Assembly (NCBI GenBank): GCA_964016885.1
Contig: OZ024740.1
Coordinates: 109,430,001 to 109,494,000, forward strand
Source of the DNA: Eledone cirrhosa
Taxonomy: Eukaryota
Length of the DNA stretch: 64,000 nucleotides
Direction: 5' to 3'
The notes under the pieces were generated by a model. It made no database searches. It saw only the letters and a program-made list of their open reading frames with translations, and had not been told where the DNA came from. The translations under genes were made by a program, and so were the position numbers. Below are positions 9,355 to 24,327 of the stretch, in pieces; the stretch's first letter is position 1, and every line of letters begins with the position of its first letter.

Positions 9355-9585
9355 TATTTGTTTTGCGAGGTTTTTGATATGAAATCGTGTGTCGAAACAA
9401 ATATTGTTATACTTGGGGAGGGTCATATTGTTGTAATAATATTGCCAGAATTAATAACAGAACACACTCACTGTTTGGTTGGTTTTCGCTTCTGTATCTT
9501 TTATATCAGTTAATTTACTCAGCCCCCAATGTTCTGTTATTAATTCTGGCAATATTATTACAATAATATGACCCTCCCCAAGTAT

Positions 9586-9593
<8 letters not shown>
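9355..9593. mobile_element. Short inverted insertion of the PLE-pLTR/retrozyme-like family seen at 23606-24327
   Basis: 64-bp arms 9401-9464 and 9530-9593; shares GAAATCGTGTG..GAAAC..ATATTGTTATACTT.GGGAGGGTCAT with the 23.6 kb copy; TA tracts on both sides. Confidence 0.7.
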
Positions 9594-9625
<32 letters not shown>

Positions 9626-10339
9626 GCACACACACACACACACACGCACAGATCTGGTTCAAACATGGGTTTTAGTTGTATAGAGGGGCTATCATCTTTG
9701 TTTAATGTCCATCTTCCACGCTAGCATGGATATATTTATTAAATGTACACATGTAAGCTTATTTATATTTTGTGTGTGCGTGTGTGTGTGTGTGTGTGTG
9801 TGAGAGTGAGTGGCAGTGCACATGTTGAGAAGTAAGCAAAAATACACATACATATTGAGACAAAGAAACATTTGCATATACACACATGCATACACACACT
9901 CACAAATTCCCACATTCCCATGCCCACACATACAGATTGTCTCCCCTCCCCTACACACACAGTCCCTCATATCCCTACACATTCCCTCACGCATACACAG
10001 TATGCATGGTAAATGAGAAATTTGGAAGCAATTACAAAGATGATAAATATCTTTATGTTGAGATAAAGTTGGATAATCTAAATTATTAAACATGGTGGTG
10101 GTAGTGTACTGTCTTGTCCAGAGAACTGGCTAATGGTAATATATATTAATGGGTATATTAATATATTATGCTGCTCAGTGTATGTGTGTGTCTGTATGCA
10201 CACCATTTAACGTCAATTGTATATATTACAGAGATTACTTTTTCTTGTTACTCTGAGTTTCATGGGTTGCCAAAGATCATGCAACTGGGAATGATTTCTA
10301 TATGATATTGAGTACATTTTCCTCTTGTTTATAAACCCA

Positions 10340-10409
<70 letters not shown>

Positions 10410-19893: not shown

Positions 19894-20034
19894 ATTTATA
19901 TATATATATTTATATATATATATTTATATATATATATTTATATTTATATATATTTATTTATATATATTTATATATATATATTTATATATATTTATTTATA
20001 TATATTTATATATATATATTTATATATATATATA
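19541..20034. repeat. (TA)n with TTTA interruptions
   Basis: Directly visible. Confidence 0.95.
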
Positions 20035-23000
20035 CGCAATCCAAAACTTCAGAGTTGGTACCATGAATGTAGGCACCTTAAAGGGTCGCTCTAACGAGGT
20101 TGTAGAAATGCTTGAACGTAAGGAGGTCGATGTTTGTTGTATTCAAGAGACCAGGTGGAGGGGAGGGTCGGCTAGATTCATCGTGGGTAAAGAACGATGC
20201 TATAAGCTTTTCTGGGTGGGAAATGACAATGGGTTGGGTGGGGTAGGAATCATGGTAGCAGAAAAGTGGGCAGATAAGATAATAGACGTAAATAGAGTGA
20301 ACGACAGAATAATTAAAATAAGACTTGTCCTCAATAAAACTACGGTGACAGTAATATCTGCGTACGCACCCCAATCCGGACTGCCCGGCGCTATAAAAGA
20401 CAGATTCTACGAAACACTGATGCTCGCTACCTCCCAAATAACCGACAGTGACTATATAGTTATTGCAGGCGACCTAAATGGTCACGTTGGACAACATTGT
20501 GACGGCTATGACGGAATCCATGGAGGCTATGGGTTCGGTACTAGAAATGAGGAAGGCTCCAGAATCCTGGAATTCTGCGACGCAAATAACTTAACTATCT
20601 GTAACACTAACTTCAAAAAACGAGACAATCACTTGATCACCTATAGATCGGGGGAACACACAAGCCAGGTAGATTATATCCTTACCAGAAGACGTGACAG
20701 AGTGTCTGTTGTTAACACTAAATCCCACCCCCATGAAGAATTCACCTCCCAACATAGACTGATAATTAGCGACCTCATAGTCAGGACGAGACGTACTAGA
20801 CAGCGGAAGAGGACTATCCTCAGGAGAAAAATATGGAAGCTAAAGGACCCCATAGCCAGAAATAAATTTCAAAGCATATTACTTGACGCTTTCGACAGTA
20901 AGGAAGAGCAATTAGAGTCGTATAATATAGAGGAACAGTGGGAATTCCTGAGAGCAAACCTGCTGACGGCGGCAGACGAAGTCTGTGGCTGGAGCAGGCC
21001 TGTAGGTAGGAGGAGAGTAACATGGTGGTGGAACAGTAAGGTGGAGGAGTCAATTAAGGCCAAAAAGCAGGCTTGGAAAGTATGGCGGGATGGGGGAAGT
21101 AGAGAAGACTATCAAGTGGCCAGGAGGGAAGCTAGGAGACAAGTGTACTTCGCAAGAAGGGAAGCAGAGGAAAGAAAGTTAAAGCATGTTCTACAACGTG
21201 AGGACCAAAAACGTGAGGTGTTCAGGATTGCCAGGCAATGTGTCAAGGAAAACCGTGATATTGTCGGGGAGAAGTGTGTACTTAACGATGATGGCATACT
21301 TGCCATCACCGACGCTGATAAGAAGGTAGCTTGGAAGTGTCACTACGAAAGGCTTCTAAATGAGGAGAACAAATGGGAGAAAGACAGTCTCCCCCACATC
21401 GACCCAATAGAGGGACCAGCAGTGTTAGTTGAAGGTAGTATAATAAGTAAGGCAATCAAAGATATGAAGACGGGTAAGGCGGCTGGGCCTTCGGAAATAG
21501 TTGCTGAGATGCTGAAGGCATCTGGTTCGGTGGGACACACCATGGTCACCCGGATAGTTAACCAAGTCGTACAGAATGGGGTTGTTCCGAAGGAATGGCG
21601 TAGCAGCATCATCGTTAACTGCTATAAGGGAAAAGGAGATGCCCTAGATAGGAGTAACTATAGAGGCATTAAATTAATCGACCAGGTCATGAAGGTCACG
21701 GAAAAAGTAATAGCGCAACTAATCAGAGAGAGAATTGATCTAGATGAAATGCAGTTCGGGTTTGTGTCAGGCAAAAGTACCACAGACGCTCTTTTCATTG
21801 TACGACAACTACAGAAGAAGTACCTAGCTAAAAGTAAACCCCTATACTTAGCTTTCGTCGACTTGGAGAAAGCCTTCGACAGAGTCCCCCGCTCCATTAT
21901 CTGGTGGGCTCTTAGAAAACTAGGTGTTGACGAATGGCTTGTGAGAGCTAAACAAGCCATGTATAAAGAAACAGTCAGTAAGGTTAGAATTAACAACGAA
22001 TATAGTGAAGAGTTTAGCGTAAAAGTTGGTGTCCATCAGGGCTCTGTTCTTAGCCCCCTACTATTTATTATTGCCCTTCAGGCTATAACAGAGGAGTTCA
22101 AGACCGGCTGCCCATGGGAACTCCTATACGCAGATTATCTAACGCTCATAGCTGAATCAATGACCGAACTAGAGAAGAAATTCCAAACATGGAAGCACGG
22201 CCTAGAATCAAAAGGCCTTAAAATTAACCTGGCTAAGACTAAAGTTCTAGTTTGTAGGAAAGAAAATAAGGCGGCAGTCCCATCGGGGAAATGGCCATGC
22301 TCAGTGTGTAGGAAAGGCGTAGGTAGAAACTCCATTTTATGTCCCAAATGCAAAGTATGGGTGCATAAAAGATGTAGTGGGATCACAGGTAAGCTAACTA
22401 AGAACATAGATTTTACATGTGGCCGGTGCTCTGGTGCAATAAGTAGCAGCAAGTGCCCACAAAATACTAGCTCCTTCAACTGCGCAGAGGGTTCTATAGA
22501 AATAGTGGACAGCTTCCGTTATCTGGGTGACAAAATCAGCAGTGGGGGAGGGTGCTCTGAAAGTACAGTAGCTAGAGTCAGAACTGGATGGAAAAAAGTT
22601 CAGAGAGCTTATACCACTATTAGCCGCTAGAGGGTTCTCCCTAAAAATGAAAGGCAGGTTATACGATGCCTGTATACGAACAGCAATGCTGCATGGCAGT
22701 GAGACCTGGGCATTGTGTGCAGAGGATATACGCAGACTAGAGAGGAACGAAGCTTGCATGCTCCGCTGGATGTGCAATAGTAATATACGTGAACGGCAAA
22801 GCATAAACGAACTAAGGAAAAAATTAAAAATAAGAGGGATCAGATGTTGTTTACTCGAGAGAAGGCTACGTTGGTACGGTCACGTGATGCGCATGAAAGA
22901 CGACAGCTGTATAACAAAGTGCAGGGCAATAAAGATAGACGGTAGCCACGGAGTAGGCAGACCCAGAAAAACATGGGACGAGCTGATAAATTCCGACCTC

Positions 23001-23590
23001 ACACGCTTACACCTCTCCAAGACAATGTCACTGGACCGAGACCTTTGGCGGTACTCAGTAATAGAGAAGACCCGCCTTACCTAAATACAAAGTAAAAACC
23101 TACTACAGTCAGTAGGCATCTCTATCAAAACACACCCCCGTCCCACCACCTCCACCCCACCCGCACCGCCCCTTTCAATGTAAAGTTATGTTGGTCCCAC
23201 AACATCCAGGCCGAAACAAATGAGATCGTGTAGGTGTCACGACAAAAAACACACAGTCCACGCTGTAAATGTGGCCGTGTAGGCAACGCGGTAAAAACCT
23301 CCCAGCCCCACACTGTAAATGTGGTTGGTGTTAGGAAGGGCATCCAGCTGTAGAAAACCCGCCAGACAGTCCACGCTGTAATGTGGCCGTGTAGGCAACA
23401 CGGTAAAAACCTCCCAGCCCCACACTGTAAATGTGGTTGGTGTTAGGAAGGGCATCCAACTGTAGAAAACCCGCCAGACAGTACTATGCGAGCAAGACAA
23501 CCACTCTTGCCTCAAGTGGGAAAACCCCCGTCCAAACCCATGCAAGCGTGGAACACGGACGCTAAACCTGATGATGATGATGATGATGAT
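20035..23590 (+). mobile_element. Near-full-length RTE LINE (APE-RT-PHD-like finger), 3' UTR with about 119-bp internal duplication, (GAT)n tail
   Basis: [57 protein letters not shown]; tail at 23569-23590. Confidence 0.96.
20063..23084 (+). pseudogene. RTE APE-RT polyprotein, inactivated (YADD to YADY; frameshift near 22592)
   Basis: Split ORFs 20063-22630 and 22647-23084; GCAGATTAT here versus GCAGATGAT/GCTGATGAC in sister copies. Confidence 0.9.
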
Positions 23591-23605
23591 ATATTTATAT
23601 ATATA

Positions 23606-24327
23606 TATTTCGTTTCTGAATTTGTTTAGCAAGATTCTTTATCTGAAATCGTGTGTTGAAACCGATATTGTTATACTTTGGGAGGGTCATGTTGCCAATA
23701 AGAAACACACGCACCAGTTGCTTTCACTTCAATTTAATTTATTATATATTTATAAATTTACAAATTTATAAATTTCTGGTTGGTTGGTTGGTTCCACAAC
23801 CAGATAGTTGTTTATATATATATAGTCATAGTTCTTTCGTCACACACTCTGTGACCTCTTCAGTGACTGGGGATTTCTTTCTTCGTTTCTGTGCCTTTCC
23901 TTTCTTCTATCCTACGCCATTTTGTTTGTGTGTGGGTTGCGTGCTCCGTTTGCGCATGCGCCACATCCGGGTGTCTGTGTGTGTTTGTGTTCATTGTGTT
24001 CACACAAACACACACAGACACCCGGATGTGGCGCATGCGGAAACGGAGCACGCAACCCACACACAAACAAAATGGCGTAGGATAGAAGGAAGGAAAGGCA
24101 CAGAAACGAAGAAAGAAATCCCCAGTCACTGAAGAGGTCACAGAGTGTGTGACGAAAGAACTATGACTATATATATATAAACAACTATCTGGTTGTGGAA
24201 CCAACCAACCAACCAGAAATTTATAAATTTGTAAATTTATAAATATATAATAAATTAAATTGAAGTGAAAGCAACTGGTGCGTGTGTTTCTTATTGGCAA
24301 CATGACCCTCCCAAAGTATAACAATAT
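23606..24327. mobile_element. Palindromic PLE-pLTR/retrozyme-like insertion (326-bp arms, 11-nt spacer, 59-nt extra left tail)
   Basis: 23665-23990 is the reverse complement of 24002-24327 with about 2 mismatches; flanked by TA tracts. Confidence 0.88.
24124..24168 (+). ncRNA. Hammerhead-like motif, slightly non-canonical (mirror copy 23824-23868 on minus strand)
   Basis: AGTCA-CTGAAGA-G-GTCACA-GAGTG-TGTGAC-GAAA-GAAC-TA-TGACT; stems I and II pair; stem III imperfect; one unpaired G before stem II. Confidence 0.65.

What the first reader, a model, noticed from the sequence alone, without database searches (positions are those of the whole stretch)
9355..24327. Four inverted insertions from three unrelated families share one geometry: staggered 3' ends, both joined to TA repeats
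Seen: in each case the 5' ends meet at the centre and the 3' ends face outward into (TA)n. The minus-sense arm extends past the other arm's 3' end by about 46 nt (9355 vs 9401), 58 nt (15909 vs 15967), 44 nt (310-bp array) and 59 nt (23606 vs 23665). The short arm always stops at an AT-rich motif (..AACAATAT, ..CTTATAT, ..CTATATT). The two copies of the same family (9.4 and 23.6 kb) stop at the same GTATAACAATAT. Known: PLE insertions often have inverted 5' segments and a short 3' extension. Inference: two defined priming sites about 50 nt apart, each priming on one strand of a cut TA microsatellite, i.e. a programmed twin-priming mechanism shared by these non-autonomous families.
Basis: partly seen in the sequence, partly recalled or inferred. 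Interest (0 to 1): 0.85.

Follow-up and report, generated by a model that had tools for sequence, protein, structure and literature searches.

The report
Penelope tails mark ribozyme-array insertions
These are head-to-head insertions of Penelope-like retrotransposon ends and of ribozyme-bearing tandem repeats into TA microsatellites, nearly always with one long and one short end; that shape is already known for Penelope elements, but here it also marks the protein-less repeats, which were likely copied in both directions from one, probably circular, RNA by a Penelope-type enzyme.

Summary
Observation confirmed and genome-wide. [quoted passage not shown] B (422-bp unit) and C (310-bp unit) are ORF-less tandem arrays with a type I hammerhead motif per unit (retrozyme-like). 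Outside the window, 66 of 68 inverted B, C and D insertions with both ends visible have one long and one short 3' end. A is looser (7 of 11). This is the known PLE 'tail'; two internal RT start sites and extension of both strands were shown in vitro in 2024. Corrections: A and D are not non-autonomous, and C's usual offset is about 35 nt, not 44. Not found in my searches: retrozyme arrays carry the full PLE insertion signature, and in C both arms share one haplotype in 27 of 27 informative loci, while loci differ. That points to double target-primed copying of one template, probably a circle. No autonomous partner for B or C and no RNA evidence were found. Verdict: known mechanism, new members, useful new evidence.

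The parts
9355..9533 (-). Element A, long arm: 3' end of a PLE family (sister of D), including the 46-nt tail at 9355-9400
   Evidence: longer copies run into RT-thumb/linker/GIY-YIG coding sequence
9530..9593 (+). Element A, short arm, ending at the short site and joined to (TA)n
15908..16775 (-). Element B, long arm: about 2.06 copies of a 422-bp unit; hammerhead cores start at 16635 and 16213; long end at 15908/15909
16775..16908 (+). Element B, short arm (part of one unit), short end joined to (TA)n
17003..18291 (-). Element C, long arm: about 4.2 copies of a 310-bp unit; hammerhead cores start at 17205, 17515, 17825, 18135
18289..19540 (+). Element C, short arm: about 4 units; hammerhead cores start at 18452, 18762, 19072, 19382; 3-nt overlap with the other arm at the centre
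23606..23995 (-). Element D, long arm: pseudo-LTR of an autonomous PLE, hammerhead core at 23863, 59-nt tail at 23606-23664
24002..24327 (+). Element D, short arm: pseudo-LTR, hammerhead core at 24129, ORF start codon at 24302; stops 26 nt into the ORF. Six extra bases (23996-24001) separate the arms
15547..15907 (.). (TA)n target tract left of B
16909..17002 (.). (TA)n tract between B and C
19541..20034 (.). (TA)n tract right of C
24328..24939 (.). (TA)n tract right of D

Best explanation
All four are head-to-head insertions in TA repeats with one long and one short 3' end, A and D from autonomous Penelope-like elements and B and C from protein-less hammerhead-bearing tandem repeats, and they were likely made by a Penelope-type RT-endonuclease that nicks both strands and primes two cDNAs at two fixed internal sites of one template RNA, which for B and C is probably a circle. 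Steps: (1) inferred: staggered nicks 12-14 nt apart in AT-rich DNA, from three target-site duplications; (2) shown as end positions, inferred as priming: each 3'-OH starts at one of two internal RNA sites 35-59 nt apart, one arm at each, with 2-8 nt of TA-like match to the target; (3) shown as shared haplotype, inferred as one molecule: both arms derive from the same template lineage; (4) inferred: RT runs past the unit boundary, on a ribozyme-made circle or a tandem transcript, giving arrays or partial tandems; (5) shown: the two copies stop at variable points and are joined with little or no overlap or a few extra bases; (6) inferred: B and C borrow the enzyme in trans from an unidentified PLE.
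For: Ends: B 19 of 20, C 27 of 27, D 20 of 21 inverted loci are long+short. All 46 B outer ends fall in the two clusters, although the unit holds longer internal TA runs. D copies encode RT, a CxxxxCxxC linker and a GIY-YIG-type C-terminus. In 20 of 30 loci taken at D's ORF 5' region, an upstream pseudo-LTR reads through both sites into the ORF; the sites lie 26 and 85 nt into the ORF, as the tail does in PAc and Pen2a_Av. Hammerhead motif on the sense strand of B, C and D, none antisense, 0 of 2000 shuffles each. C haplotypes: arms match in 13 of 13 informative loci (window plus 12 of the 16 position-ordered loci) across 9 haplotypes (exact permutation p = 1.9e-8), and in 14 of 14 loci found through a rare haplotype. 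D arms share minor alleles at 38 of 71 sites against a permuted mean of 0.086, 0 of 2000 permutations. Target duplications of 12, 13 and 14 bp at three non-TA sites (L069, L115, L161; read by eye). Arm lengths of C arrays do not differ from D arms (KS p = 0.29). In vitro, a PLE protein cuts and extends both strands, starts at two internal sites and is predicted to be a dimer (PMC11167929).
Against: No autonomous partner for B or C: no similarity to the 3' ends of A, D or the part of the Hydra-like element tested. Two exceptions to pairing (B L091 long+long, D L064 short+short). A is looser: 7 of 11 partner arms end at the short site, the others 8, 22, 138 and 156 nt further in, and L128/L140 may be long+long. 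Mixed arrays exist: B L097 has arms of different haplotype, B L095 and window C have variants shared by adjacent units. D concordance is incomplete (33 of 71 sites discordant; L069 0 of 15). B arm lengths differ from D (KS p = 0.015), and all three samples are length-biased by how they were found. B loci were selected for identity to the window unit, so they say little about haplotypes; the second C sample may favour concordant loci (40 of 126 candidates scored). The in vitro study reports no homology between start site and target and no start-site difference between strands, whereas these sites have short TA-like matches and are paired.
Confidence: 0.78

Rival explanations
1. Same enzyme and sites, but the two arms come from two separate RNA molecules, or from a linear multimeric transcript, of one active source array rather than from one circle.
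For: Source arrays are themselves homogeneous, so transcripts of one source share a haplotype. L097 has discordant arms. D partial tandems can come from tandem transcripts.
Against: It needs one source to dominate at every insertion although at least 9 haplotypes circulate. Arms of 9 and 17 units in one insertion (L226) are hard to sustain when each round truncates. Hammerheads in every unit would be expected to cut multimers (inference from PMC7229834).
Confidence: 0.3
2. There is one priming site, and the short end arises by endonuclease-mediated resolution or trimming of the intermediate (the reading given for the tail in PMC8557442).
For: Genomic ends alone cannot tell priming from trimming; the strict one-long-one-short pairing would follow naturally from one processing step.
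Against: RT start sites mapped in vitro coincide with both genomic end classes of PAc. Both sites here carry TA-like matches to the target. Single-arm insertions end at either site.
Confidence: 0.12
3. The second arm is a fold-back (self-primed) copy of the first cDNA, as suggested for palindromic PLE junctions in PMC3846280.
For: It explains identical haplotypes in the two arms; a few centres hold short hairpin-like extra pieces.
Against: The two arms break at different unit positions, so centres are not mirror-symmetric. The short-ended arm is the longer one in 5 of 13 C loci and the shorter in 8.
Confidence: 0.05
4. B and C insert as short inverted pieces and the arrays grow afterwards by unequal exchange (the route discussed in bioRxiv 10.64898/2026.07.22.740005).
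For: Variants shared by neighbouring units in L097, L095, L099 and window C show that local duplication happens.
Against: Most arrays show only array-wide or single-unit variants. Array arms are about as long in bases as D arms. It does not touch the end geometry.
Confidence: 0.15
5. The inverted structures are assembly artefacts of palindromic, TA-rich DNA.
For: Such regions are hard to assemble; some loci hold N gaps.
Against: Arms are asymmetric, ends are stereotyped over more than 60 loci, target duplications exist, and contigs of an independent run (X3) show 12 different plus-to-minus joints and TA-joined ends at both sites.
Confidence: 0.02

Closest known systems
Canonical EN+ Penelope-like elements with inverted pLTRs and a 30-40 bp tail (PMC3846280, PMC8557442); PAc/Poseidon mechanism (PMC11167929)
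   Same: Head-to-head 5'-truncated copies, tail on one end, ORF starting inside the pLTR with the tail in its first codons, type I hammerhead, partial tandems, 8-14 bp target duplications, AT-rich targets, two internal start sites.
   Different: Tails are longer in three families (46, 55-59, 58 nt). Start sites carry 2-8 nt TA-like matches to the target. [quoted passage not shown]
Neptune / Nematis clades of PLE
   Same: A and D have the CX2-5CxxC linker before a C-terminal GIY-YIG domain, which PMC8557442 gives for these clades.
   Different: No tree was built. By eye the short linker spacing resembles the Nematis rows in that paper's supplement more than the Neptune rows.
Metazoan non-LTR retrozymes (PMC7229834; bioRxiv 10.64898/2026.07.22.740005)
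   Same: B and C: 310-422 bp tandem units, one type I hammerhead each, no ORF, high copy number (C: 15,730 exact 35-mer hits).
   Different: Here they sit as inverted pairs with two fixed ends in (TA)n. The main texts of those papers have no such description ('inverted' 0 and 1 unrelated hit) and leave the mobilising enzyme as a proposal.
Non-autonomous Chlamys elements such as MRC1 (PMC8557442)
   Same: Non-autonomous PLE partners that form pLTRs and multicopy head-to-tail insertions.
   Different: Those resemble an autonomous family at the 3' end; no such match was found for B or C.
LINE-1 twin priming (recalled, no paper read)
   Same: Two target 3' ends prime two cDNAs, giving an inversion.
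   Different: L1 uses the poly(A) end plus a variable internal site and copies non-overlapping segments. Here both sites are fixed and internal, and both arms copy the same segment.

Membership tests
EN+ PLE (elements A, D) | RT followed by C-terminal GIY-YIG endonuclease in one ORF | tested here: met
   D ORFs of 880-919 aa with RT motifs (Pfam RVT_1 E = 2-3e-4, below the gathering score; no Pfam GIY-YIG hit); linker and GIY-YIG-type motifs read by eye; 78 homologs, one named GIY-YIG domain-containing. A: matching fragments, 52-70% to D.
EN+ PLE (elements A, D) | Pseudo-LTR / partial tandem with ORF start inside it | tested here: met
   D: 20 of 30 loci; start codon 26 nt before the short end. 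Not tested for A.
EN+ PLE (elements A, D) | Inverted 5'-truncated copy with the tail on one end | tested here: met
   D 20 of 21; A 7 of 11 exactly at the short site. Tails are longer than the cited 30-40 bp.
EN+ PLE (elements A, D) | Type I hammerhead in the pLTR | tested here: met
   D passes the motif scan. A: fails the strict scan in the one copy tried; 1 of 4 copies passes a relaxed scan. Rfam found none.
Neptune/Nematis clade | CX2-5CxxC linker before the GIY-YIG domain | tested here: met
   against the description in PMC8557442
Neptune/Nematis clade | Placement in an RT phylogeny | not tested
   No named reference proteins were held as usable sequences.
Non-LTR retrozyme (B, C) | Tandem units of a few hundred bp, no ORF | tested here: met
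Non-LTR retrozyme (B, C) | Type I hammerhead motif in each unit | tested here: met
   core, stem I and stem II on the sense strand only; 0 of 2000 shuffles. Minimum-energy folds recover the stems only partly, z not significant.
Non-LTR retrozyme (B, C) | Self-cleavage and expression as circular RNA | not testable with these tools
   Needs biochemistry or RNA reads.
Non-LTR retrozyme (B, C) | Sequence relationship to a PLE pLTR | tested here: inconclusive
   No match to A, D or the tested part of the Hydra-like 3' region; other PLE families in the genome were not surveyed.
L1-type twin priming | Poly(A)-primed 3' end plus variable internal second primer, non-overlapping segments | tested here: not met
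   No poly(A), fixed sites, overlapping segments; definition recalled.

The most novel reading that the evidence does not exclude
A PLE enzyme dimer sits on one ribozyme-made RNA circle with each subunit locked to one of two start sites, and copies the circle by rolling-circle synthesis from both nicks of a cut TA repeat; this single reaction builds inverted retrozyme arrays, PLE partial tandems and the tail, and is how animal retrozymes move.
Probability: 0.45. Interest if true: 0.72.

Novelty: new member of a known kind. Interest (0 to 1): 0.48.

Why it matters
Which enzyme moves animal retrozymes, and how PLEs form inverted insertions with a one-sided tail, are open questions in the papers read (PMC7229834, the 2026 preprint, PMC8557442). 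These young, abundant families give a genomic footprint that ties the two together: protein-less ribozyme arrays carry the PLE signature, ends pair as long+short in 66 of 68 cases, and both arms share a template. It names exact RNAs and start sites for an in vitro test and gives a sequence-independent way to recognise PLE-mobilised satellites. The geometry itself is not new.

Tried and rejected
DNA search with the C unit found nothing because its words are too common. Rfam gave only hairpin-type matches below gathering scores and no hammerhead family; rejected as chance matches to the inverted repeats. No RNA holder was listed for C; no evidence either way. Runs X1 and X2 hold the C unit as one 340-nt contig (unit plus 30), which fits a circle or a perfect tandem array equally, and their kind is not on record, so I draw nothing from it. 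Folding of the regions around the two end sites showed no structure common to B, C and D. The Hydra-like family in the window was tested as partner for B and C: no similarity in 30 loci, no hammerhead by my scan, true 3' ends not reached. Whole-arm identity was too noisy to test D concordance and was replaced by shared polymorphic sites. A model of the C hammerhead region could not be used on this genome. A genome-wide count of end classes was not obtained; counts rest on fetched loci. Three look-ups of earlier scan findings were empty. Rejected readings: fold-back, assembly artefact, L1-type twin priming, ends at any AT-rich site.
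Full report
Observation. The window lies in a 3.0-Gb, TA-rich animal genome (G000); the best named protein match to element D is an Octopus vulgaris hypothetical protein at 66%. Self-comparison and end mapping confirm four head-to-head insertions: A 9355-9593, B 15908-16908, C 17003-19540, D 23606-24327, with left-arm overhangs of 46, 58-59, 44 and 59 nt and (TA)n at all eight outer ends.

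What A and D are. Longer D copies hold ORFs of 880-919 aa that read toward the outer ends, with RT motifs, a CxxxxCxxC linker and a GIY-YIG-type C-terminus. Pfam gives only a weak RVT_1 match. Of 30 loci taken at the ORF's 5' region, 20 have an upstream copy of the 3' UTR that reads through both end sites into the ORF. The ORF starts inside this pseudo-LTR; the short and long sites lie 26 and 85 nt into it. A copies lead into a related protein, 52-70% identical, and share 87% over 75 terminal bases with D. So A and D are 5'-truncated ends of two sister autonomous PLE families of the Neptune/Nematis type; the clade rests on the linker motif, not on a tree.

What B and C are. B is a 422-bp and C a 310-bp tandem unit without an ORF. 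One 35-mer of C occurs 15,730 times in the genome, its reversed control 0 times. Each unit, and the D pseudo-LTR, carries a type I hammerhead motif on the sense strand only; 0 of 2000 shuffles per family gave one. Rfam does not detect them and activity is untested. They fit the definition of non-LTR retrozymes. They show no similarity to each other, to A, to D or to the tested part of a Hydra-like PLE.

Ends across the genome, window excluded. B: 26 loci (all those in the 150 listed rows); 20 inverted with both ends visible, 19 long+short, 1 long+long; 5 single-arm, 1 hidden by N. C: 16 loci in positional order (first 100 places) gave 13 of 13; 17 further loci found through a rare haplotype (first 150 rows, query locus left out) gave 14 of 14, with 3 single-arm loci in each set. 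D: 30 regions gave 21 inverted insertions, 20 long+short and 1 short+short. Total 66 of 68. A, sampled for long ends with 1.5-kb flanks, is looser: 7 of 11 visible partners end at the short site. Offsets are family-specific: about 35 (C, long end spread over unit positions 1-13), 46 (A), 55-59 (D), 58 (B). Both sites resemble the target by 2-8 nt, yet B's longer internal TA runs are never used (46 of 46 outer ends in the two clusters), so AT-richness alone does not set the ends. Diverged B-like and C-like arrays keep ends at the matching positions in the few cases inspected.

Centres and targets. Centres fall at variable positions, mostly within 5 nt of overlap or up to about 18 extra bases (that table includes three B rows, L082, L083 and L099, that are not the true centres). 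Three insertions outside pure TA show duplications of 12, 13 and 14 bp (read by eye). In pure TA none can be read.

One template. In C, arms and almost all units of an insertion share a haplotype while insertions differ: 13 of 13 informative loci, window included, over 9 haplotypes (p = 1.9e-8; L102 uninformative), and 14 of 14 in the second set, including sub-variants and one variant seen only in L238, carried by all full units of both arms. The variants recur between loci, so they are source variants, not later mutations. D agrees less cleanly (38 of 71 shared minor alleles against a permuted 0.086; L069 discordant). Against uniformity: B L097 has different arms, and L095 and window C have variants in adjacent units. 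Either arm can be the longer and centres are asymmetric, which argues against fold-back. C arm lengths match D (KS p = 0.29) but B does not (p = 0.015), with sampling bias in all.

Mechanism. Most likely a PLE RT-endonuclease nicks both strands 12-14 nt apart, each 3' end primes at one of two internal RNA sites, both cDNAs run on the same template lineage past the unit boundary, and their ends are joined. End positions, pairing, haplotype sharing and joints are shown; nicking, priming, a single molecule, a circle and trans-mobilisation of B and C are inferred. Confidence 0.78 overall, about 0.6 for a circle, 0.45 for the full one-circle, two-subunit model.

Known work and what I saw of it. PMC11167929 (parts 1-2 of 4 and passages): a PLE protein cuts and extends both strands, starts at two adjacent internal sites that match the genomic tail, and is predicted to be a dimer. 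[quoted passage not shown] PMC3846280 (passages): tail on one inverted pLTR, within the ORF's first codons, 8-10 bp duplications. PMC4209133 (passages): hammerheads in pLTRs and a proposed circular template. PMC7229834 (passages): retrozyme circles, PLEs as candidate mobilisers. bioRxiv 10.64898/2026.07.22.740005 (parts 1-3 of 5 and passages): retrozymes as PLE derivatives, mechanism left open. L1 twin priming is recalled. Eight searches found no description of inverted retrozyme arrays with paired ends or of haplotype sharing between arms; the library lacks most subscription papers and Repbase entries, and several supplements were not seen.

Verdict. Real, general and mostly explained: the PLE tail geometry. 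The added value is the strict pairing count and the evidence that retrozyme-like arrays are inserted by the same reaction from one template. New member of a known kind, interest 0.48.

Noticed in passing
window 13.9-15.55 kb, minus strand (ORF 14369-15520): Truncated copy of a young, very abundant Hydra-clade-like PLE (CxCX5C linker; 150 scored matches at 97-100%, 60,126 candidates). Several genomic copies lie as head-to-head pairs; no hammerhead found by my scan.
   Followed up: partly
window 20035-23590 (+), 24940-26000 (-), 1-1600, 36505-37278: LINE with endonuclease and RT ORF and a (GAT)n 3' tail, RTE-like by recall, sitting in TA tracts next to C and D; further fragments nearby.
   Followed up: no
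window 37722-48965 and 25989-27557: Very long (TA)n tracts with regular TT interruptions, the largest 11 kb; the same interrupted pattern flanks B, C and D.
   Followed up: no
L082, L093, L104, L112, L142, L069 (B-like); L120, L140, L152, L158, L110 (C-like): Diverged relatives of B (72-88%) and C (68-81%) occur by chance in many fetched loci, some as inverted pairs with ends at the matching two sites.
   Followed up: partly
L135, L152, L124, L040, L093, L150, L066, L076, L095: Further hammerhead-motif families unrelated to A-D; the genome appears rich in them.
   Followed up: no
G000:C1:392885869-392895200 (L097, L154): B insertion whose arms differ, with a run of variant units interrupted by one reference unit; suggests template switching or later exchange.
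   Followed up: partly
L101, L227, L233, L237: Short extra segments at or near the centre of C arrays, like template jumps during joining.
   Followed up: no
runs X1-X6: The C unit is held at 90-100% of words by runs under four organism labels, so the family may be shared between related species.
   Followed up: partly
window 27829-32777: 21-bp tandem array of about 117 copies followed by other low-complexity arrays.
   Followed up: no
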